Virus record (IMG/VR): IMGVR_UViG_3300048597_000056
Coordinates: 1-54,057 of that record
Reading direction: 5' to 3' (one strand)
DNA: 54,057 nucleotides
DNA from: a virus
Taxonomy: Duplodnaviria > Caudoviricetes
The notes beneath the pieces were generated by a model. The model made no database searches. It had not been told where the DNA came from and saw only the letters and a list, made by a program, of their open reading frames with translations. The position numbers and the translations under genes were made by a program. Positions 358-15,703 of this stretch are shown piece by piece; within the stretch, counting starts at the first letter, position 1, and each line of letters opens with the position of its first letter.

Positions 358-596
358 GTCTGAACCTGTATAGCACGGCGCTGGTCTGGTATGGATACCA
401 AGGCATCGCCAAGTTACACGGGCGGCAGATCACGCTAGTGACAGCTCCCAGGATCGAAAGCTGGCGCTTGGCGATGATTGACTACCGACCCGAAATCGGC
501 GAGCGCCGCATTCAGATGTTTGACGGCCCGGCGCGCGACATGGAGCCGCGCGAGGTGCTGGCGGCAGATGCTTTTCTCGGTTCGCTGTTCGCCTGA
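354..596 (+). CDS. Hypothetical protein (80 aa), last rightward gene
   Basis: GTGA overlap with previous stop; MSLNLYSTALVWYGYQG... Confidence 0.6.
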   Translation: MSLNLYSTALVWYGYQGIAKLHGRQITLVTAPRIESWRLAMIDYRPEIGERRIQMFDGPARDMEPREVLAADAFLGSLFA

Positions 597-1495
597 GCGA
601 GCGCGTCGCGCACGCGCTGCGCGTCCACCTCCAGCGACTGTTGCAGGGCGGGCCACGGGAATAAGTCCCGCGACTGCTGGATGATGACCTCGATCGCTTG
701 CAGCCGGTGCTTTAGTGCAAGTCGCGTCGGATTTCCAGATAGAAGCCTGGTGACTGCTTCGGTTGAAATCGCGATCTGATGAACGCCGCCGCGTTTCCCA
801 GGCACAAGCGACTCTCTGCCTGCAATGGCTGTGTCAATAGTTTTGATGGCGGCATTGGTGCTGTGGATCGGCCGCGTTTGCTCTTGGTGATAGCGCAGTG
901 CTCCTCCGGCCACCTTCAACGCATTGCGCAGCGCCTCGTTCTCGACTCGCAGCTTCTCGAATGCGCCAGCGGTATATCCGTACTCACTTGCAATTCCTTC
1001 TTCAAGTCGGCGTTGTAGGTTGACGGGGCCATAGCCTTCTGCGTCGCAGTGGGCATCCCAGTGTGCTGCCATTTCCTCTGCCGCTGCAACCATTACAGTC
1101 TTGAGCTTCGCGTTCTCGGCCAGCAGGCGATCAAGCTCAGCCCGCTGGTCTGCTTGCACTGATGCCGTAGAGGCACGCAGCGCGGCGAGTTCCTTGCCCT
1201 TCTCGCGGATGATGTCGCACAGGTTGTCATTGGTGCGGCCTGGGTGCCACCCGGCATCCTTCATCGCGTAGTGAAACTGGTAGACCGTCGCTGTAGCCCG
1301 GTCGGCTTTGTTGCGCTGAAACTCGTAGTTCTCCATATTGATGCGCGCGGCGTCTTGCAGCGCGGCGAGTTCGGCGGCTTGGCGCTCGATCAGGTCGGCG
1401 GCTTTGCGCATGCGCTGCCCAAGCGGGGCGCCTGCCCTGGCATCACAATCAGCAAGCCAGCGCAGCTTGTCGGCCAGTGTCTTTGCGTCAGTCAT
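512..1495 (-). CDS. Ead/Ea22-like modular coiled-coil early protein
   Basis: ATG at 1495 overlaps upstream TGA; KAADLIERQAAELAAL coiled-coil typical of lambdoid accessory proteins; 3' end overlaps the convergent gene by 85 bp. Confidence 0.6.
   Translation of the reverse strand: MTDAKTLADKLRWLADCDARAGAPLGQRMRKAADLIERQAAELAALQDAARINMENYEFQRNKADRATATVYQFHYAMKDAGWHPGRTNDNLCDIIREKGKELAALRASTASVQADQRAELDRLLAENAKLKTVMVAAAEEMAAHWDAHCDAEGYGPVNLQRRLEEGIASEYGYTAGAFEKLRVENEALRNALKVAGGALRYHQEQTRPIHSTNAAIKTIDTAIAGRESLVPGKRGGVHQIAISTEAVTRLLSGNPTRLALKHRLQAIEVIIQQSRDLFPWPALQQSLEVDAQRVRDALAQANSEPRKASAASTSRGSMSRAGPSNI
1470..1495. repeat. Gene-start repeat A (25/26 identical to 5799-5824)
   Basis: tcggccagtgtctttgcgtc(a/g)gtcat, encodes MTDAKTLA on the minus strand. 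Confidence 0.9.
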
Positions 1496-1695
1496 AGATG
1501 CACCTTCGAGTTTTTCCACCCGAGCGCAGGCACATGCAGAGGCTTCCACCGCCCGCCCCACGATATGCGGACGCGTGGTATGTTCAAGCGCCGTCCTGCC
1601 TTGTTTGCTCTGTGGCTGCTAACGCTGCGCGCAAAGTGTTGCGTTGTCCAAGAACTGAGGTTCCAGCCGTACCACGTCTTGCCGTTCGGTCTCAT
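1492..1695 (-). CDS. Hypothetical protein (MRPNGKTWYGWN...)
   Basis: ATGA overlaps at both ends. Confidence 0.6.
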   Translation of the reverse strand: MRPNGKTWYGWNLSSWTTQHFARSVSSHRANKAGRRLNIPRVRISWGGRWKPLHVPALGWKNSKVHL

Positions 1696-2262: not shown

Positions 2263-2329
2263 GCCTAACCCCCGGTTCAAGCGGAGTCACCCGGCAGGCC
2301 GGGTGCCCCGCTTAACCGGAACGTTAGAA
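2263..2329 (+). mobile_element. attC site 1 (67 bp)
   Basis: R'' GCCTAAC-ccccg-L'' GTTCAAGC ... L' GCTTAAC-cggaac-R' GTTAGAA; extra C in L''; central inverted repeat cacccggc/gccgggtg. Confidence 0.9.
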
Positions 2330-2815
2330 GGCGTCCGCTTCTCGTTGCACCGTGCGCGCCAGCAGTGCGGCCCACACGGCACCACCGAGCACCTTCGCCA
2401 CGAACTGCAGGGCAACGATGTGCGGCATCAGCACACCAAAGGCAAGCGTCGGGAAAAGCAGCGAGTCCACCGCAGCGCCTGCCACGTTCGAGCCGTTGGC
2501 ACGGTACAGCCAAGACCCGCGCAGCCGCGCGAACGTCGCCCAATCCACCAGGGACGCAGCGGTGAATGCCACGCTCGACGCCACGGCGATCATCCCCGCT
2601 GCCGGGTTCAGTGCGTAGGTCAGAAGCCCCGTGGAGGCGATCAGCGCTCCCATCTGCCAAGCGCGCAGTCGAACGTGCAGCCAGTCGCGCAGCGCCAGGT
2701 CCAACCCGATCAGCACGAAGGCATTGATCGGGCTCACCCACGGCCCGAAGTGGGCGATGGTCAGGTTCGCCACGGTCATCGCGGCGGCATAGATCAGGAT
2801 TGCAATGGTCAGCAT
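2324..2815 (-). CDS. VUT/YhhQ-family queuosine-precursor (preQ0/preQ1) transporter-like membrane protein
   Basis: Multi-TM; motifs ANL, IGLDLALRDWLH, ASLVDW, SNVAGAAVDSLLFPTLAFG, QFVAKVLGG. Confidence 0.8.
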   Translation of the reverse strand: MLTIAILIYAAAMTVANLTIAHFGPWVSPINAFVLIGLDLALRDWLHVRLRAWQMGALIASTGLLTYALNPAAGMIAVASSVAFTAASLVDWATFARLRGSWLYRANGSNVAGAAVDSLLFPTLAFGVLMPHIVALQFVAKVLGGAVWAALLARTVQREADAF

Positions 2816-3492
2816 AGAGCCTCTTGAATTGGCCGCTCAGTCCAAAGAGTCGGCGGGTTGGTGGAGTCGATACGCTGCGCCATGCACTCAGCGCAGGTTG
2901 TGGAACCGCGGTTTTTGAAGTTGCGGCCTACGTTCGTGGAATCCGCGCTCGCCAGCGGCCACGGGCCGGCAGCGTGCCCCAGCATGCGCAGGCCGTGCAG
3001 CCAGGGCACGCGGCCAAACTGCTGCACAAGCGCGTTAAATGTCTCGTCCATGCGCCCAGCCCACGCGGCCGAGCCAACCTGCCAGAACTCGCCGCTACTG
3101 CCGATGCACACGCGGGGCCAGTCGTTGCACAGGTCAAACAGGTATTCCAGCGGCAGGCCCAGGTGCCACACTGGCGCCCCGTACTCCTTGCGGTGCGGCC
3201 AGGTCGCCACCATCGCGCGCTGCTGTTCAACGCCGCCGCCTATCTCGTCTGGCACTACAGCCCAGTGCGGGTGCGCCAGATGCGGCTCGATCCAGCGGTA
3301 AAAGCCAGGCGCATCAAACGCTATGCCGCGCGTCTTCACGCTGAACGCGCCGTTGTCCAGCATCACACTTTGCCCAATTCTCAGGCACGTACTCAAGTCC
3401 TGCGGCGCAGCGTAGCTCACGCAGAACATGCGCCCCGCCATCGCGCTCAAGCTGGCGCGCGGCGTGATTGGGGTTCCGTGGTAGTGCAGCAC
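2809..3492 (-). CDS. TGT-fold (queuine transglycosylase/DpdA-like) protein
   Basis: Motifs LDNGAFS, VVPDEIGG, PVWH, GSSG, HGLRML, SADSTN; overlaps the transporter gene. Confidence 0.65.
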   Translation of the reverse strand: MLHYHGTPITPRASLSAMAGRMFCVSYAAPQDLSTCLRIGQSVMLDNGAFSVKTRGIAFDAPGFYRWIEPHLAHPHWAVVPDEIGGGVEQQRAMVATWPHRKEYGAPVWHLGLPLEYLFDLCNDWPRVCIGSSGEFWQVGSAAWAGRMDETFNALVQQFGRVPWLHGLRMLGHAAGPWPLASADSTNVGRNFKNRGSTTCAECMAQRIDSTNPPTLWTERPIQEALC

Positions 3493-3793: not shown

Positions 3794-3889
3794 GCCGAAC
3801 TAGTTGTTCGAGCGGACTGCCTGCCGGCAGTCCTCGTGCATCATTCGTCGTCAGCGCGGGCAGGCATCCGCTCAACGCCGACGTTATGC
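3794..3889 (+). mobile_element. attC site 2 (96 bp)
   Basis: R'' GCCGAAC-tagtt-L'' GTTCGAGC-ggactgcctgcc ... ggcaggcatcc-L' GCTCAAC-gccgac-R' GTTATGC. Confidence 0.88.
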
Positions 3890-3890
3890 G

Positions 3891-4664
3891 TCAGATCAAA
3901 GCGCGGATGGCGGCTCCACGCCCGCATCCTCCACGCTGACTATCGTTGTCAAGACACTCGTGCAGGACATGCGGACGGCCAAGCGAGGCGCGCAGCTCGG
4001 CATTAGCCTTGAATAGCAGCGCGTAGGCTTCCTTTAGCTCAGCGATTTCTTCCTCATCTGCTTTGCTGGCGCGTGGCGTCAACCCCGGCACAAACTGCCC
4101 AGCGTCAAGACGGTGAAGCGCATCCATGACGGTCTCGACGGTCGGCGCATCGGTGCTAATTGAGCCATCGGCGCCTAGCTTTGCCATCATGTGCGACACG
4201 GCAGCGTAGAGGCTCGACCATTCAAAGTTGTCTGCCGCGAGCTTTGCTGGCGCTGCTGGGGCGGCTGTGTAAAGCGGAAAATCAAGAACTGTTTCTGACC
4301 CAGACGGAACACAATGAAATTCACATAGTCCATCGGGCCATTTCCACATCCATGCCACCGGCTCGGCCTGTTCTGTGGGCTGCGACTCTTTGAGCGCGTG
4401 TACGAAAGCAAGGCGCGCTGAATCGGCTAAGTTATCCGGCATGTCGCCGTGGATGCATCGCAGAATCTCCATGAACCTGTCACCCAACTCTAGCGCCACC
4501 GGCTCGGCCTGTTCTGTGGGCTGCGCTAGGGCTGCGCGAAGTTGCTCAATGACTTCGGGGCACCAGACGGTGATTGCCTCGACGGTGCCGTCATCGTGAT
4601 CTGTGCATCCGCCTTGCAGGTTCTCCAGCACTTCCAGCGCAGCGCGCATTGCTTGTTCGCTCAT
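3891..4664 (-). CDS. Ea22/Eaa-like modular protein with repeated QPTEQAEPVA linker
   Basis: ATG at 4664 overlaps upstream TGA; EPVAW and PLYTAAP motifs; stop lies 1 nt from attC2 R'. Confidence 0.7.
   Translation of the reverse strand: MSEQAMRAALEVLENLQGGCTDHDDGTVEAITVWCPEVIEQLRAALAQPTEQAEPVALELGDRFMEILRCIHGDMPDNLADSARLAFVHALKESQPTEQAEPVAWMWKWPDGLCEFHCVPSGSETVLDFPLYTAAPAAPAKLAADNFEWSSLYAAVSHMMAKLGADGSISTDAPTVETVMDALHRLDAGQFVPGLTPRASKADEEEIAELKEAYALLFKANAELRASLGRPHVLHECLDNDSQRGGCGRGAAIRALI
4354..4525. repeat. 31-bp direct repeat (4354-4384 and 4495-4525) encoding QPTEQAEPVA
   Basis: gccaccggctcggcctgttctgtgggctgcg occurs twice. Confidence 0.9.
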
Positions 4665-5824
4665 GGCATTTGCCCTCCCACACACTCGATCACGATGCGC
4701 TCGATGGCGCGGGCAACTCGACGCATGTCGCTCATCGTCTGCCATCCACCAGAACCGTGCGATGTAGAAACGCTGTCGATCTGCTCATCACTCAGCGGCA
4801 CATAGGGTGCGCTTGCTGGTGGCGGGTGGTAGTACACGGGGCGAACAACCCATGTCGCGGCATCTTCAATGTCGTCTTCGTTTATGGCATCGTTGATGTG
4901 CTCGTGGGCGGCTTCTTCCCATGCGGCGGCGTGTTCTAGGCTCAACGATCCGTCGCTGTTGACGCTGCACACATGCCACGCAACCGGCTCTGCGCTCACG
5001 CTGGGCTGCGCCTCCTGCCGGCCGCGATCAATCAGCGCTTGCGCGTCAGACGAGACGCACGGGTCAAGCCAGATGTCGTGATGCCATTGCAGCAACTTGT
5101 TCAAGTCGTCATAGGGCTCCGTCGCTACGCCAAGATGCGCGACAACAAGGGCCTCATCAATCGCCTCTCGCCAAGGGTTGCGCGCCTGCTGCGGTGCTGG
5201 GGGTGCGGCGTAGAGCATGGCGCGGTAGCATTCAACCCATCGGAATTGCGCCGGCAGCGGGTGCGCGGAAGGCCCGACAGCGCGCCAATACTTCTCTGCG
5301 GCCTCGGCCATTGCAGAAGTAAATGGCGCGCGGCAACAGGCGCTATCTGCCGGCTCATTTCCAGCGCAATATGGGTAGGTGCATAGCGCCACCGGCTCAC
5401 CCTGCGCGTGCTGCGTCAATGGCGGCGCCCATTGCTGATTCCCAGCAGTGGTGCCGCTGCTCATTCGGCCCGTCAACATCTGTGTAGAAAGTTGCGCCCG
5501 CATCGCGCAGCCCCGATACCGCTCCGCATCCGCCTTCAGCGCCTCGCGCTCGGCCCGCAGCGCGGCAATCTCTGCGGCCTGCTGCTCGATCTCTCTGCGC
5601 GCCTTCAGCAGCAGTTCTTCGCGCACCCACTGGGCGACGCCATCTGCGCGCCAGCCCATGCAGTTTTCTCGCCCACAGCGCGCCAGCTTTTCCAGTTCCG
5701 ACGCCTGCTGCTCGATCATGTCTGCGGCTTTGGATTCAAGCGCTGCAACATCTCGATAGCCTAGTGATGTCATCCAGCTTTCGTTTTCGCGTAGCCGCTC
5801 GGCCAGTGTCTTTGCGTCGGTCAT
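4661..5824 (-). CDS. Ead/Ea22-like modular protein
   Basis: KAADMIEQQA coiled coil, LKADAERYR, two EPVA linkers, YRAMLYAAP, PLSDEQI modules. Confidence 0.7.
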   Translation of the reverse strand: MTDAKTLAERLRENESWMTSLGYRDVAALESKAADMIEQQASELEKLARCGRENCMGWRADGVAQWVREELLLKARREIEQQAAEIAALRAEREALKADAERYRGCAMRAQLSTQMLTGRMSSGTTAGNQQWAPPLTQHAQGEPVALCTYPYCAGNEPADSACCRAPFTSAMAEAAEKYWRAVGPSAHPLPAQFRWVECYRAMLYAAPPAPQQARNPWREAIDEALVVAHLGVATEPYDDLNKLLQWHHDIWLDPCVSSDAQALIDRGRQEAQPSVSAEPVAWHVCSVNSDGSLSLEHAAAWEEAAHEHINDAINEDDIEDAATWVVRPVYYHPPPASAPYVPLSDEQIDSVSTSHGSGGWQTMSDMRRVARAIERIVIECVGGQMP

Positions 5825-5871
5825 GGCAGGCTCTGTTAGCGGACTAGGGTGTCTGCCAATTCACGTTGGGC
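5824..5871 (+). mobile_element. Partial attC (central stem plus right arm)
   Basis: tggcaggc...gtctgccaat-tcac-R' GTTGGGC; gttgggctgcac (5865-5876) is the exact reverse complement of gtgcagcccaac (6135-6146); R'' position occupied by repeat A. Confidence 0.7.
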
Positions 5872-6212
5872 TGCACATCCAAACCGCCGCACACGTCCAG
5901 CAGCATCATTGCCATGTTGGCAACGTCTGCCGAGTGTTCGCGGATCAGCGCGCCGTCCTTGTTCTTCACGGCCGCCGACAGCTTTGCGGTGTGCCAATAG
6001 ATTTCCAGCAGCCCGACTTCTGGCGTCATCGACAGCCAGCCGGGCCGGTCCCCTTTGCGGGCGTTGGCGTGCAGCTCGGCCTCCATCAGCGTCACAAATG
6101 GCCCCAGCACGTTGCCGTACTTGCCATGTAGCGCGTGCAGCCCAACTGGTCGTTGCACCTGAACCCCTTCGGCGGGCGGCTCAGTGGCGTTCGGGAACTC
6201 GGTGGTGCTCAT
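5844..6212 (-). CDS. MazG-like / dNTP pyrophosphohydrolase-like helical protein (cassette gene)
   Basis: NARKGDRPGW and EHSADVANMAMMLLD motifs; starts inside attC3 and stops inside the partial attC. Confidence 0.55.
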   Translation of the reverse strand: MSTTEFPNATEPPAEGVQVQRPVGLHALHGKYGNVLGPFVTLMEAELHANARKGDRPGWLSMTPEVGLLEIYWHTAKLSAAVKNKDGALIREHSADVANMAMMLLDVCGGLDVQPNVNWQTP

Positions 6213-6255
6213 GCTTGGTCAGCGCCTCAGTGGTCAGGTGAACTTTGCGTTGGGC
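6140..6255 (+). mobile_element. attC site 3 (116 bp)
   Basis: R'' GCCCAAC-tggtc-L'' GTTGCACC-tga ... tca-L' GGTGAAC-tttgc-R' GTTGGGC. Confidence 0.88.
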
Positions 6256-6494
6256 GTCTTCAGGTTCGCCCGCAGTGTGGTCAGCGCGGCCACTATCCCG
6301 GCATCCTGGCCACGCCAGTAACTGCCCGGCTGCCCTGCCGGTTTCATCGGGTCCACCATCTGCCAAGTCAGGCGCAGGGCTTCTTCCCAGCGTGCCGTTT
6401 CGGCGTCAAGCGCAGCCCGCAGCAGTGAGGCTTCGGTTTCGGCCTTCATGGCGCGCTGCAGCAGCGCGAGGTCCATCTGCAGTTCAACGTGCAT
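6234..6494 (-). CDS. Hypothetical cassette protein
   Basis: MHVELQMDLALL...; ends PNAKFT-stop inside attC3. Confidence 0.65.
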   Translation of the reverse strand: MHVELQMDLALLQRAMKAETEASLLRAALDAETARWEEALRLTWQMVDPMKPAGQPGSYWRGQDAGIVAALTTLRANLKTPNAKFT

Positions 6495-6498
6495 GGCG

Positions 6499-6687
6499 TC
6501 AGCCGCGCTTGGTGGCGCGCTCCCAGATGGTGTCCAGCGTTTCGACCTGCTTCGCGCTCGGGCGGCGGCCTTCGGCAAGCTGCCGCTGTAGCGAGTCCAC
6601 AAAGCCGAGCTCCCAATCGCTCAAGCGCTCGCTGCGCTTCTCGCAGTCTTCCAGCAGCGTCAGGTACTCATCAGCCCAGGTAGTCAT
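6499..6687 (-). CDS. Hypothetical cassette protein (LSDWELGFVDSL...KQVETLDTIWE)
   Basis: GGAGGA SD before ATG at 6687; motif familiar from small phage proteins. Confidence 0.7.
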   Translation of the reverse strand: MTTWADEYLTLLEDCEKRSERLSDWELGFVDSLQRQLAEGRRPSAKQVETLDTIWERATKRG

Positions 6688-6907
6688 CTTCGTCCTCCGG
6701 CCATCCGTGGCACAAGCATTCGCAGGGGTCTTCCGGGCCATCGCCGCCGTAGCGAATCCAGGCGCACATGCTGCCGTCGTGGTGCGCGCAGACGCAGCCG
6801 TAAGTGCCACGCGGCCCCTCGGCGTCCGTGCCTTCGTTCACCGGCCGCCCAACTGACGCTTCGAGCCGACCCACAACAGGCCGGCTAGTTTGGTTCGCTT
6901 CGGTCAT
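6671..6907 (-). CDS. Small Cys/His-rich cassette protein (CxC...CECLCH)
   Basis: GAGGA SD and ATG both lie in the loop of attC4. Confidence 0.65.
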   Translation of the reverse strand: MTEANQTSRPVVGRLEASVGRPVNEGTDAEGPRGTYGCVCAHHDGSMCAWIRYGGDGPEDPCECLCHGWPEDEDDYLG

Positions 6908-6949
6908 GTTTCCTCGGCCTGTTGCGGTCGGCTCAAGCTAACGTTAGGC
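6847..6949 (+). mobile_element. attC site 4 (103 bp)
   Basis: R'' GCCCAAC-tgacg-L'' CTTCGAGC-cgacc..caacaggccg ... cggcctgttg..ggtcg-L' GCTCAAG-ctaac-R' GTTAGGC. Confidence 0.9.
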
Positions 6950-6950
6950 C

Positions 6951-7190
6951 CTAGAAGCCGCGCCCCTGAAGATCGGCCGTGTGCCACAGCATCAACTTGC
7001 CTTGCCTTTGGTGCCCGTCGCCACCTTCGCATCGAAGCACGGACAAGCACTCTTGATGTTTGGCGCTCAGGTGCCGGCATGTGCGGCAGTCAAGCGACTC
7101 CAGCTTTGCGGTTGCGTAATCTGCCGCGCTGACTACCTCCATCGTTCCGGCTCGATACGGGTGCTGAATGGTGAAGCTCTCAAACATCAT
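6951..7190 (-). CDS. Small Cys-rich hypothetical protein
   Basis: CRTCRH...C...C; stop lies 1 nt from attC4 R'. Confidence 0.6.
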   Translation of the reverse strand: MMFESFTIQHPYRAGTMEVVSAADYATAKLESLDCRTCRHLSAKHQECLSVLRCEGGDGHQRQGKLMLWHTADLQGRGF

Positions 7191-7251
7191 CTTGTTCCGG
7201 TTACGACTAGGGATAGGGTGGGTCTTGGGGGAAGAGTCGGCAGCTTTGCAC

Positions 7252-11983: not shown

Positions 11984-12889
11984 TTATTTCAGGAGAAAGC
12001 GACGAGACACATTGCCGGTGTGCGCGAATTGATAGTAGAGGTCAGGGTGTGCAACCTTGAACTTCGCCGCGTCGAAGCGTTGTGCTGGCTTTGCTGCCTT
12101 CCAAGTGCAAAGAGTCGATCCACGTTCATCGACAAGCGTATCGGCTTCTCCCATTGCCTTCATCACGAAAGCCTTGAGCATTTCCTCCTGCTCGTCGTAC
12201 TGTGCGCGTTGCAGTCGGAGTGCTTGAAGCTGCAATACAGCCTCCTTTACGGGGTCGTCTGCCATCACCAGTGCTGACTTGCTGGCGCGGCCCCACTTGG
12301 CCTGTACGTCTGCAAAGCTAACCGGGTCTGGAGGATTCCCGGCCTGCACTCGCGACCAGAATTCAGCCTCTGCCGCAATGATCATTTCCTGAAGCTCGCG
12401 GTCTGCCTCGACTTCGTAGATACGGAAGTCACTCCCGCCGATCAGCACGGCAATGTCAGCGACTGGAATAGCGGTAACTTCCATGTAGTGCTGCACCTGT
12501 AGGAGGTAGGCTTCCGGTACTTGATCTGTCCCAGGCTCGCCCCATCCCTCGGAGCTTCTAGCTGTCTTTGCCTCGAAGATTCGCCCGGTGCGGTCTGCAA
12601 TGACCCCATCGAGATTGGCGATCATGAAGTCATGCTTCGGGTGCCTGAGCATCGTCTCTGGAATGCGGACTTCGTTCCCTGTGGCATCAGAGTAAGCCTG
12701 CCGGATGACTGGTTCTAGATACCGTCCCCACTGCATCGCTTTGTTGTCCTCGGTAGGCTGAGATTCCCCGCGCTTAGACAGGTAAACCTCCAGCGCTGTA
12801 GACCACTTGCTCAGACCCAGGATCGCCGCTACGTCCGATCCGCCGATCCCTGTCGAGCGGGCCAGATGCCATTCTCTAGACTTTTCCAT
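11984..12889 (-). CDS. YqaJ-family (lambda-exonuclease-like) viral recombinase/nuclease
   Basis: RSTGIGGSDVAAILG, WGRYLEP, ANLDG, EAKT, QVQHYM motifs. Confidence 0.92.
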   Translation of the reverse strand: MEKSREWHLARSTGIGGSDVAAILGLSKWSTALEVYLSKRGESQPTEDNKAMQWGRYLEPVIRQAYSDATGNEVRIPETMLRHPKHDFMIANLDGVIADRTGRIFEAKTARSSEGWGEPGTDQVPEAYLLQVQHYMEVTAIPVADIAVLIGGSDFRIYEVEADRELQEMIIAAEAEFWSRVQAGNPPDPVSFADVQAKWGRASKSALVMADDPVKEAVLQLQALRLQRAQYDEQEEMLKAFVMKAMGEADTLVDERGSTLCTWKAAKPAQRFDAAKFKVAHPDLYYQFAHTGNVSRRFLLK

Positions 12890-15335: not shown

Positions 15336-15392
15336 GCGGTTCTCCGGTGGGTTGCGTCTGCTCTGGTTCCCTGCAATCTGCAAGGTGCGTGA

Positions 15393-15433
15393 ATATTAGC
15401 CTAGACTAAGCACTATGTCTATAGCCTAGATTA
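15393..15433 (-). promoter_or_regulatory. Main leftward promoter with two operators (15397-15408, 15422-15433)
   Basis: Minus strand TAGACA-N17-TAATAT; TAGCCtaGACTA and TAGCCtaGATTA. Confidence 0.75.
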
Positions 15434-15464
15434 AACTGTTACATCTTTTTTTCGGCCTCTGCTG

Positions 15465-15493
15465 TTGCCAGCATACTTTGCCTAGGCTAAGAT
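15465..15493 (+). promoter_or_regulatory. Rightward promoter with operator (15478-15489), probably giving a leaderless mRNA
   Basis: TTGCCA-N17-TAAGAT, then 6 nt to ATG at 15500; TTGCCtaGGCTA overlaps spacer and -10. Confidence 0.75.
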
Positions 15494-15499
15494 TGCGCC

Positions 15500-15703
15500 A
15501 TGACTAAAGATGACGTAGTTGCCTTCTTCGGCAATCAGGCAGAGGTCGCCAGGGTGCTAGAGATAAGCCAGCCCAGCGTGTGCAACTGGATCGAGGTGCC
15601 ACCCATGCGGCAGCTCGAACTGGAGCGCATCACCGAGGGCAAGCTGCGAGCCGGCCCGGAGTGCGCTCGCTACCGCGTCGGTACTCTAGTTAAGGCTCGC
15701 TGA
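15500..15703 (+). CDS. cro: Cro-like HTH regulator
   Basis: FFGNQAEVARVLEISQPSVCNW...LERITEGKLRA, P22/N15 Cro-type pattern; first gene of the rightward arm. Confidence 0.85.
   Translation: MTKDDVVAFFGNQAEVARVLEISQPSVCNWIEVPPMRQLELERITEGKLRAGPECARYRVGTLVKAR

What the first reader, a model, noticed from the sequence alone, without database searches (positions are those of the whole stretch)
5844..6949. Cassette genes run antisense to attC, and the attC sites encode starts, RBSs and stops
Seen: the extra base in L'' fixes attC polarity on the + strand, but all genes are on the - strand, opposite to typical bacterial cassettes. Genes 5844-6212 and 6671-6907 start inside their own attC (SD GAGGA and ATG in the attC4 loop) and translate its arm (VQVQRPVG, GRLEASVG; SPLEQLVR for attC2). 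Genes ending at 6234 and 5844 run across the crossover and take their last residues and stop codon from the neighbour's attC (PNAKFT, PNVNWQTP). Inference: the site is dual-coded, so each cassette carries its own translation start, is transcribed from the phage leftward promoter rather than Pc, and could swap C-terminal tails when shuffled.
Basis: partly seen in the sequence, partly recalled or inferred. Interest (0 to 1): 0.82.

Follow-up and report, generated by a model that had tools for sequence, protein, structure and literature searches.

The report
Phage attC array with reversed genes
A complete phage genome carries four genuine integron recombination sites whose genes sit on the unusual strand, so that the sites also supply ribosome-binding sites, start codons, first residues and sometimes last residues of the phage proteins.

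Summary
The core observation is real. The window is a complete 54-kb tailed-phage genome without any recombinase. Its leftward early gene block holds four attC-type hairpins: 2263-2332, 3794-3889, 6140-6255 and 6847-6949.

A covariance model built from these elements, on the gene-sense strand, finds the textbook attC sites of three class 1 integrons. It finds them only on the strand opposite the resistance genes.

Genes 6671-6907 and 5844-6212 must start inside their attC. Gene 6234-6494 crosses the crossover and ends inside the next attC.

Two details fail. At 5864-5870 there is only a lone R' box that looks like a decayed attI, not an attC. Translation of the arm of 3794-3889 is doubtful.

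Related viral contigs carry arrays of up to 13 such sites:
- 41 of 61 long elements enclose the start codon.
- Homologues of one gene are identical up to Pro-Asn (CCC AAC), then carry seven different tails in nine contexts, diverging at the integron crossover.
- Eight further viral contigs encode integron integrases. In six, the arrays lie upstream of the integrase with canonical site geometry, and at most sites the genes point toward it.

CALINs in phages are published. In the searches and passages I read, this reversed, start-bearing architecture is not.

The parts
6847..6949 (-). attC-type site C, long class, 103 nt. The bottom strand is the - strand. R' GCCTAAC at 6949-6943, R'' GTTGGGC at 6853-6847. 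The loop holds GAGG and the ATG of gene 6671-6907.
   Evidence: R1 89 bits, E 5.5e-20. Fold z -5.4. A 100/103-identical copy in L031 has unrelated flanks on both sides.
6140..6255 (-). attC-type site B, long class, 116 nt. R' GCCCAAC at 6255-6249. It holds the stop of gene 6234-6494 (element positions 20-22) and the start of gene 5844-6212.
   Evidence: R1 70 bits. Structure. Three metagenome contigs break at 6248.
3794..3889 (-). attC-type site A, 96 nt, with a degenerate R' (GCATAAC) and R'' (GTTCGGC).
   Evidence: R1 60 bits. Fold z -4.1 and -3.5.
2263..2332 (-). attC-type site D, short class, 70 nt, intergenic. The TAA stop of gene 2324-2815 lies in its R' box. The next gene starts 26 nt after it.
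   Evidence: R1 37.5 bits, E 3.3e-7, not in the training set. Stop position.
6671..6907 (-). X1, a 78-aa Cys-rich protein. Residues 1 to about 20 are encoded by site C.
   Evidence: 17 viral loci with relatives. Invariant Cys/His columns. Three homologues have other N-termini and no element.
6499..6687 (-). X2, 62 aa, with its own GGAGGA Shine-Dalgarno sequence. Second gene of the same cassette.
   Evidence: Sequence. 89-97% identical copies next to X1 in at least 10 loci.
6234..6494 (-). X3, 86 aa, third gene of the cassette. Its last residues AKFT and its stop come from site B, beyond the crossover.
5844..6212 (-). X4, up to 122 aa, a widespread phage protein of unknown function. Its start lies inside site B. 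Its tail VNWQTP follows a lone R' box.
5826..5870 (-). Lone R' box GCCCAAC (5870-5864) followed by an attI-like remnant. This is the end of the sub-array formed by sites C and B.
   Evidence: No R1 hit. 12 of 17 bases after the box (the C of AAC included) match the conserved attI-like junction of the intI-bearing relative L083 (my count on alignment A3).
6951..7196 (-). Upstream gene whose TAG stop lies 2 nt before site C. It is a separate cassette in L027.
   Evidence: 93% identity to L027 5054-5296, which is flanked there by R1 hits.
2324..3492 (-). Cargo between sites D and A: a queuine tRNA-ribosyltransferase-like protein (phrog_887) and a Vut_1/YhhQ-like transporter.
15393..15421 (-). Promoter-like site just upstream of the first leftward gene, facing a Cro-like gene at 15500-15703. 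Candidate source of the leftward transcript.
   Evidence: site count not above shuffles; phrog_409.

Best explanation
The four elements are genuine integron attC sites. Together they form an integrase-less cluster (CALIN) in the leftward early operon of a complete tailed phage. They belong to a family of phage-borne integrons in which the open reading frames lie on the canonical bottom strand of attC.

Read in the sense of the genes, a cassette is C-spacer-L'-loop-L''-R''-gene(s)-RYYYAA. In the long class of sites, about 85-130 nt, the variable loop carries a Shine-Dalgarno sequence and the start codon. The L'' arm and R'' box are then translated as a leader of about 15-20 residues.

The last gene of a cassette ends in one of two ways. 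It can end on a TAA that is part of the R' box, or it can run across the AA|C crossover and take a few residues and its stop from whatever lies next.

Shown here:
- the site structure and its covariation
- the polarity
- the coding strand
- that the starts of X1 and X4 cannot lie outside the sites
- that homologues diverge exactly at the crossover
- that related viral contigs have intI and an attI-like junction in canonical geometry

Inferred:
- that the leaders are actually translated
- that the array is read from the phage's leftward promoter
- that a host-encoded or co-resident IntI moves cassettes in this integrase-less phage
- that 5864-5870 marks a lost attI and intI
For: 1. Structure. 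In 14 aligned elements, 24 pairs are predicted and 11 of them show compensatory changes. An unpaired G is nearly invariant, three pairs into the L box on the 3' arm.

2. Membership and polarity. R1 finds attC of aadA1 in R100 at 29.4 bits (E 2.6e-6) on the intI1 strand, against 5.6 bits on the gene strand. It gives four more hits in two other class 1 integrons, all on the intI1 strand and none on the gene strand. One of these is weak, E 0.086.

3. Arrays. The 31 viral loci give 100 matches at E <= 1e-3. These are 90 distinct elements, all on the gene-sense strand, plus 10 weaker opposite-strand echoes of the same sites. One 12-kb locus holds up to 13 elements.

4. Coding strand. The bottom strand is the coding strand downstream of 85 of 93 elements and upstream of 82 of 93.

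5. Starts (the 85 elements whose downstream coding strand is the element's strand):
- Long elements: 41 start inside, 13 downstream, 7 open through.
- Short elements: 1 start inside, 20 downstream, 3 open through.

6. Upstream stops: 26 of 82 use the TAA inside the R' box.

7. Crossover. X3 homologues are identical up to CCC AAC, then carry seven different tails in nine contexts, the window included. X4 has three different tails after Pro-Asn. Three contigs of run X4 break at 6248.

8. Modular leader. The same leader type precedes four unrelated proteins: the X1 family, and the proteins in L031, L040 and L075.

9. Integrase. Eight viral contigs encode IntI relatives. All five tested score 396-428 bits against a 265-bit cut-off. 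Their 21 R1 hits are all on the intI strand and all upstream of intI, with coding on that strand at 18 of 21. A conserved attI-like junction follows the last R' box.
Against: - No recombination or translation was measured.
- The window has no IntI, no tyrosine recombinase and no serine recombinase. Its sites may be inactive relics unless a host supplies IntI, and the host is unknown.
- R1 was trained on the elements it describes. Its independent support is site D, the five class 1 sites and the arrays in other contigs.
- Only 4 of about 7 cassette attC sites in the two extra class 1 integrons were found, one of them weakly. R1 is therefore a narrow model.
- The frame calls rest on a simple codon log-odds model trained on this phage. 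It gave 8 of 93 (downstream) and 11 of 93 (upstream) calls on the other strand, and X1 itself scores only 0.08 bits per codon.
- The Shine-Dalgarno match for the ATG of X4 is poorly spaced, 12 nt by my reading.
- The intI-bearing contigs share no proteins with the window at E 1e-8, apart from one weak hit. The link to them is through the site type only.
- The attI-remnant reading rests on a short, partial resemblance.
Confidence: 0.85

Rival explanations
1. The sites are fossil attC sites. Cassettes were captured once, from a host or an intI-bearing phage, and the sites now survive only as intercistronic translation signals. Nothing in this phage moves any more.
For: The genome has no IntI or any other recombinase. 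Site A has degenerate R boxes. The junction at 5864-5870 has lost its partner. The X1-X2-X3 trio is conserved as a block in many loci.
Against: The stems keep pairing through 11 compensated pairs, while the encoded leader peptides vary. The same cassette is joined to at least seven different right-hand partners exactly at the crossover. Breaks at the crossover are also seen in another metagenome run. These show recent exchange in the family, although not in this genome.
Confidence: 0.3
2. The hairpins are mainly RNA-level devices that only resemble attC. They would present the Shine-Dalgarno sequence and AUG in a loop, act as processing or stability elements of the polycistronic early mRNA, or couple translation between genes.
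For: The start codon lies at a fixed place, element positions 43-51, in most of the long elements that enclose a start, usually with a Shine-Dalgarno-like motif just before it. Several upstream genes stop at positions 41-50, next to that start.
Against: This reading does not explain the RYYYAAC/GTTRRRY ends, the conserved extrahelical G, or the model's hits on true attC sites. It also does not explain the divergence of homologues exactly at AA|C, or the arrays abutting bona fide intI with an attI-like junction. An RNA role can coexist with the DNA role.
Confidence: 0.05
3. The polarity is mis-assigned. On this view the gene-sense strand is the ordinary top strand and the arrangement is the usual one.
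For: R1 scores the window's sites best on the - strand.
Against: R1 was built from the - strand, so that result is circular. The independent test goes the other way. R1 matches five canonical attC sites only on the strand opposite their genes. In viral integrons it matches on the same strand as intI and upstream of it, exactly as in R100. The extra bases lie opposite the AAC triplet, which defines the bottom strand (PMC5027507).
Confidence: 0.03

Closest known systems
CALINs and integrons in bacteriophage genomes (Qi et al. 2023, PMC9892861; outline, section 3.4 and term passages read)
   Same: [quoted passage not shown] That paper showed that 5 of 6 phage attC sites tested recombine with IntI1. 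It also reports a complete integron in a Shewanella prophage.
   Different: That study used isolate phage genomes and found 17 CALINs. In the text I read, cassettes are described as co-oriented in the way typical of bacterial arrays. There is no mention of genes on the bottom strand, of start codons inside attC, or of tails supplied across the crossover. Its supplementary tables could not be opened.
Canonical class 1 integron cassettes (R100/In2 aadA1; aac(6')-Ib-cr, arr-3, dfrA27, aadA16; blaIMP-1, aac(6')-IIc)
   Same: R, spacer and L box architecture, the extrahelical G, the crossover in R', and the position of the sites relative to intI are all shared. In both, the sites lie on the intI strand and upstream of intI.
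   Different: In class 1 integrons the genes lie on the top strand, read away from intI, and are driven by Pc; attC follows the stop codon. Here the genes lie on the bottom strand, read toward attI and intI, and attC precedes and overlaps the start.
attI1 ORF-11/ORF-18 and short ORFs inside attC (review PMC8876359, passages read)
   Same: In these cases a recombination site carries a translation initiation region. An ORF spans the crossover and takes its stop from the neighbouring cassette's core site. Translation through the hairpin relieves its block.
   Different: Those are short helper peptides in attI1, or in attC on the top strand, that act by translational coupling. Here the site-encoded start is the start of the cargo protein itself, and the feature recurs at dozens of attC sites.
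Synthetic attC sites embedded in coding sequences (Nivina et al. 2020, PMC7439510; abstract and passages read)
   Same: attC function depends on structure, so a site can also encode peptide.
   Different: Those sites are engineered linkers and lacZ segments. The sites here are natural, and they encode N-terminal leaders and C-terminal tails.
Sedentary chromosomal integrons with homogeneous attC sites next to unrelated genes, and their minority of reversed cassettes (recalled, not checked in a paper here)
   Same: Near-identical sites sit beside unrelated cargo, and some cassettes are reversed.
   Different: Here reversal is the rule: 85 of 93 elements. The reversed genes also lack an upstream region of their own and use the site as their initiation region.

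Membership tests
integron attC site | Inverse core sites R'' RYYYAAC and R' GTTRRRY at the ends (top strand) | tested here: met
   Exact matches at sites B and C. Sites A and D have one-base or insertion variants.
integron attC site | Imperfect L''/L' pairing with extrahelical bases on one arm, and an unpaired central spacer | tested here: met
   5-6 nt spacers, an unpaired G after three L-box pairs, and 11 of 24 pairs with compensatory changes.
integron attC site | Length within the natural range. A range of 57-141 nt is recalled; passages read in PMC5027507 give 57-70 nt for mobile sites and 133 nt for VCR2. | tested here: met
   The four sites are 70, 96, 116 and 103 nt long.
integron attC site | Recognised by a curated attC covariance model (IntegronFinder attc_4) | not testable with these tools
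   That model is not available here. The reciprocal test was met: R1 finds 5 canonical class 1 attC sites at the right places.
integron attC site | Recombined by IntI on the bottom strand between A and C of AAC | not testable with these tools
   There is comparative support only. Homologues diverge after CCC AAC, and contigs break at 6248.
CALIN (cluster of attC sites lacking an integron integrase) | At least two attC sites less than 4 kb apart on one strand, with no integron integrase (PMC4889954, passages read) | tested here: met
   Four sites lie on one strand with gaps of 1.5, 2.3 and 0.6 kb. TIGR02249 and PF00589 have no match in the whole genome.
complete integron | intI with an adjacent attI and cassette array | tested here: not met
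   The window has no intI. The feature is met in related viral contigs L081-L086.
canonical cassette organisation | The ORF lies on the attC top strand and is expressed from Pc near intI | tested here: not met
   The coding strand is the bottom strand for all four window genes and for 85 of 93 elements.

The most novel reading that the evidence does not exclude
This would be a distinct, phage-adapted form of the integron. Cassettes carry their genes on the recombinogenic bottom strand. The attC site doubles as the translation initiation region and as a donor of protein termini. The whole array, and intI where present, is read as the tail of the phage's early leftward operon.

Because the bottom strand is then the non-template strand, transcription itself would expose it as single-stranded DNA. 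Cassette expression and cassette shuffling would be coupled during phage growth, and a separate pool of phage-type cassettes would circulate that ordinary Pc-driven integrons cannot express.
Probability: 0.35. Interest if true: 0.9.

Novelty: new variant of a known kind. Interest (0 to 1): 0.8.

Why it matters
Integron cassettes are taught as promoterless genes followed by their attC and read from Pc. Here a whole family of phage arrays does the opposite. The site precedes the gene and gives it its ribosome-binding site, start codon and leader. The crossover falls inside coding sequence, so each rearrangement can change a protein's C-terminus.

This has three consequences:
- It would be a natural case of the protein-coding attC that had so far only been engineered.
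- It shows that temperate phages carry complete integrons at the end of their early operon.
- It makes a long-standing question testable: how attC folding relates to transcription and strand exposure.

It also matters for annotation. Gene callers and integron finders that expect genes on the top strand will misplace starts and cassette boundaries in such phages.

Tried and rejected
- The motif pair RYYYAAC...GTTRRRY alone gives 3 pairs in the window, about what chance gives. I rejected it as evidence.
- blastn of site C against plasmids found no match.
- Pfam and PHROGs found no family for X1-X4 or their neighbours.
- An attC at 5760-5875 was rejected: no model hit and no stable fold.
- Choosing frames by the longest ORF was misleading in this GC-rich DNA. 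I replaced it with a codon log-odds model.
- Genome contigs yielded only 5 loci with X1 relatives, all in two metagenome bins. Both bins have IntI above the cut-off, but binning of short contigs cannot tie phage to host.
- A class-level scan of 151 genomes with R1 gave 6 genomes with hits, one of them the unpublished G148. Only 26 candidates per genome were scored.
- In one bacterial bin contig (L050) the best ORF between two R1 hits lies on the opposite, canonical strand. This is a single case and was not pursued.
- The look-up of sequencing runs listed no RNA holder, and all shares were 0.15 or less. Parts of the stretch without cover are not interpreted.
- The intI-bearing contigs share no proteins with the window apart from one weak hit, so I do not claim they are the same phage type.
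- Literature searches for the reversed, start-bearing arrangement found nothing that describes it. These are word searches of open-access text only.
Supplementary files of PMC9892861 could not be opened; its Table S1 may list similar phages.
- No structure prediction, complex prediction or atlas search was run.
Full report
**What the window is.** The window is a whole virus record of 54,057 bases with direct terminal repeats, rated 100% complete. It encodes the following:
- a Cro-like regulator at 15500-15703 (+)
- a helicase
- a DNA methyltransferase
- the large terminase subunit, a portal protein and a tape-measure protein on the + strand
- a YqaJ/RecE-like exonuclease at 11984-12889 (-)

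A one-directional block of genes on the - strand runs from 15383 down to base 1. No integron integrase, tyrosine recombinase or serine recombinase is found in the genome.

**The elements.** The finding's two hairpins are real. Site C (6847-6949) folds far better than shuffles on both strands (z -4.5 and -5.4). Site B (6140-6255) has a perfect 7-bp R box, a 5x5 unpaired spacer and an L box with one extra base. Its long loop is unstructured, so its overall energy is ordinary (z -0.3).

The motif pair RYYYAAC...GTTRRRY is not significant by itself: 3 pairs in the window, about the number expected by chance. I therefore aligned 14 such elements from the window and from related viral contigs, on the gene-sense strand. 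RNAalifold predicts 24 pairs, and 11 of them show compensatory double changes.

A covariance model R1 built from that alignment gives the following on the window with filters off:

| Site | Coordinates | R1 score | Note |
|---|---|---|---|
| C | 6847-6949 | 89 bits | in training set |
| B | 6140-6255 | 70 bits | in training set |
| A | 3794-3889 | 60 bits | in training set |
| D | 2263-2332 | 37.5 bits, E 3e-7 | not in training set |

Every unrelated place in the window scores 12.8 bits or less.

**Are they attC sites, and which strand is which?** R1 describes the strand that carries the phage genes. On plasmid R100 its only significant hit in 4 kb is the attC of the aadA1 cassette. The hit lies on the intI1 strand at 29.4 bits (E 2.6e-6), against 5.6 bits on the aadA1 strand.

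In two further class 1 integrons R1 gives four hits. They fall at the attC positions after aac(6')-Ib-cr, aadA16, aac(6')-IIc and blaIMP-1. The last is weak (E 0.086). All four are on the intI1 strand and none is on the gene strand.

So the phage elements are recognisably the same kind of site, and the phage genes lie on what is canonically the bottom, recombined strand. This agrees with the published rule that extrahelical bases lie opposite the AAC triplet on the bottom strand (PMC5027507, passages read). In the phage elements the AAC is on the 5' arm of the gene-sense strand and the unpaired G is on its 3' arm. The reciprocal test replaces it.

**The window's genes.** Codon log-odds, trained on ten long structural genes of the window, are positive only in the annotated - strand frame for X1 (6671-6907), X2 (6499-6687), X3 (6234-6494) and X4 (5844-6212).
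- X1: the in-frame stop upstream lies inside site C and the ATG is at element position 43, with GAGG before it. The conserved core (TDAEGPRGTYGC...) begins about six codons after R'', with no other start in between.
- X4: the upstream stop is at element position 37, and the only start candidates are ATG at 44 and GTG at 98, both inside site B. The conserved core (GKYGNVL) follows R'' closely.
- X3 reads CCC AAC across the R' box of site B and stops 15 nt further on.
- Site A: the only start inside the element is a TTG at position 15. An ATG with a better Shine-Dalgarno match lies downstream by my reading, so translation of that arm is doubtful.
- Site D is purely intergenic. The TAA stop of the upstream gene lies in its R' box.

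**The pattern in relatives.** X1 and X4 have relatives in 17 and 14 viral loci respectively. R1 finds 100 matches at E <= 1e-3 in these 31 loci. These are 90 distinct elements in 17 loci, all on the gene-sense strand, plus 10 weaker opposite-strand echoes of the same sites. One locus, L027, holds 13 elements in 12 kb. Five of these records have no IntI.

I analysed 94 elements, the 90 above plus the window's four. One lay too near a contig end to score on each side, which leaves 93. The best coding frame is on the element's strand downstream of 85 of 93 and upstream of 82 of 93.

The elements fall into two length classes:

| Class | Number | Start and preceding stop inside the element | Gene starts downstream | Frame open through |
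|---|---|---|---|---|
| Long (85 nt or more) | 61 | 41 | 13 | 7 |
| Short (under 85 nt) | 24 | 1 | 20 | 3 |

In most of the long elements that enclose a start, the start sits at positions 43-51, and usually a Shine-Dalgarno-like motif precedes it.

Upstream genes end as follows: 26 of 82 end on the TAA inside the R' box, 22 end before the element, and 34 end further inside it or beyond.

**Evidence for exchange at the crossover.**
- X1-X2-X3 is a conserved three-gene cassette.
- Its last gene is identical among homologues up to ...LKTPN (one has KPPN). It then continues with AKFT, AKLT, PQMNGA, S, VELSGRTRSA, VISTNTHRP, VGGNRLAPTQEQR or ARLSGAGTASA. Besides the window's AKFT that makes seven further tails in nine contexts, beginning right after CCC AAC.
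- X4 shows three different tails after Pro-Asn.
- In an independent metagenome run, three contigs match the window from 6248 rightwards and carry unlike DNA before it. That is the G|TT of site B.
- Conversely, one leader type precedes four unrelated proteins: the X1 family, a 97-aa protein in L031, an 87-aa protein in L040 and a 179-aa protein in L075.
- Three X1 homologues have ordinary N-termini and no element.
- Site C and the L031 site are 100/103 identical, while both flanks are unrelated.

**Integrase-bearing relatives.** Contig L040, from a metagenome bin, has this order: element, two genes, a GCCCAAC box inside the last codons (...KTPN|FNSPTS), then the N-terminal half of an integron integrase on the same strand.

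Eight viral contigs encode relatives of that integrase. All five that I tested score 396-428 bits on TIGR02249, against a cut-off of 265. In the six with sequence upstream of intI, all 21 R1 hits lie upstream of intI on the intI strand, and none lies downstream. This is the same geometry as in R100. However, coding is on that same strand at 18 of 21 elements, so the genes read toward intI.

Between the last R' box and the intI start there is a conserved junction of the form RYYTAA|C-NTCAATTCG..., then a conserved stretch ending in TAACAC. This is the expected place of attI.

These contigs look like lambdoid prophages. A phage integrase lies next to intI in the three loci where I tested that neighbour (L083, L084, L085), and tail-fibre genes lie beyond it in L083, L085 and L086. 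They share no proteins with the window apart from one weak hit.

The window's sequence after the lone GCCCAAC at 5870-5864 matches this junction at 12 of 17 positions, counted from the C of AAC against L083, and has a CGCTAACA motif further on. I read it as a decayed attI whose intI has been replaced. This is an inference.

**How it most likely works.** Each cassette, read in the gene sense, begins with its attC and ends with RYYYAA. The long sites supply the initiation region and a variable leader peptide. The stems are conserved by pairing, not by peptide sequence.

The array lies 8-13 kb into a leftward operon. The only promoter-like site on that strand near the head of the operon is at 15421-15393 (the total number of promoter-like sites is not above shuffles). 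Expression from a Pc-type promoter near intI would be antisense to the genes.

Movement needs an IntI, which this phage lacks. A host-encoded or co-resident integron is the obvious source, but the host is unknown. X4 relatives carry names from Rhodoferax, Polaromonas, Burkholderiaceae and others.

One further inference is worth testing. With the genes on the bottom strand, that strand is the non-template strand, so transcription would leave it single-stranded.

**Comparison with what is known.**
- CALINs and a few integrons in phages are published, with recombination shown for phage attC sites (PMC9892861; outline, section 3.4 and term passages read).
- A translation initiation region in attI1 whose ORF spans the crossover, and short ORFs in attC, are known (PMC8876359, passages).
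- Coding attC sites have been engineered (PMC7439510, abstract and passages).
- The CALIN definition is met (PMC4889954, passages).

My searches and the passages I read did not show three things: arrays in which the genes are systematically on the bottom strand, the start of the cargo gene inside attC, or natural tail exchange at the crossover.

**Caveats.**
- No experiment supports translation or recombination.
- R1 is a narrow model.
- The frame calls are statistical.
- Several contigs are fragments.
- The link between this phage and the intI-bearing ones is through the site family only.

Noticed in passing
window 2324-3492 (-): Sites D and A enclose a queuine tRNA-ribosyltransferase-like gene (phrog_887, E 3.5e-44) and a Vut_1/YhhQ-like transporter (PF02592). 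This pair suggests 7-deazaguanine DNA modification carried as cassette cargo. L025 has both genes next to its array.
   Followed up: partly
window 512-1561 (-) and 4661-5824 (-): Two large genes of unknown function are paralogues that share their N- and C-terminal DNA (repeat families D1, D2, D8 and D12, 79-86% identity). Metagenome contigs that match 4661-5824 diverge at 5824 and 5828, right at its start codon.
   Followed up: no
window 4354-4384 and 4495-4525: An exact 31-nt direct repeat lies inside gene 3891-4745 and encodes a repeated PTEQAEPVA segment.
   Followed up: no
whole window: The gene layout is lambdoid, with a Cro-like gene and a divergent promoter region at about 15390-15495. 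No integrase of any kind is present, and no clear repressor was seen in the ORFs I examined. The lifestyle is unclear.
   Followed up: partly
L081-L086 (viral contigs): These are complete integrons in prophage-like contigs. intI lies at the distal end of the cassette operon, directly beside the phage's own integrase in the three loci tested (L083, L084, L085), and a conserved attI-like junction is present.
   Followed up: partly
L077 795-875: An element of the X1 type is followed by an ORF of only 26 codons: the leader plus a few residues. It looks like a cassette whose cargo has been deleted.
   Followed up: no
L050 (bin G007, contig C596): Two 126-129-nt R1 hits lie about 530 nt apart, and the best ORF between them is on the opposite, canonical strand. 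Bacterial arrays with related sites may therefore keep the usual orientation.
   Followed up: no
L084 5170-5273 and 6245-6348, with the genes after them: Two elements of equal length, each followed by a 183-codon ORF, sit 1075 nt apart in one array. This suggests a duplicated cassette.
   Followed up: no
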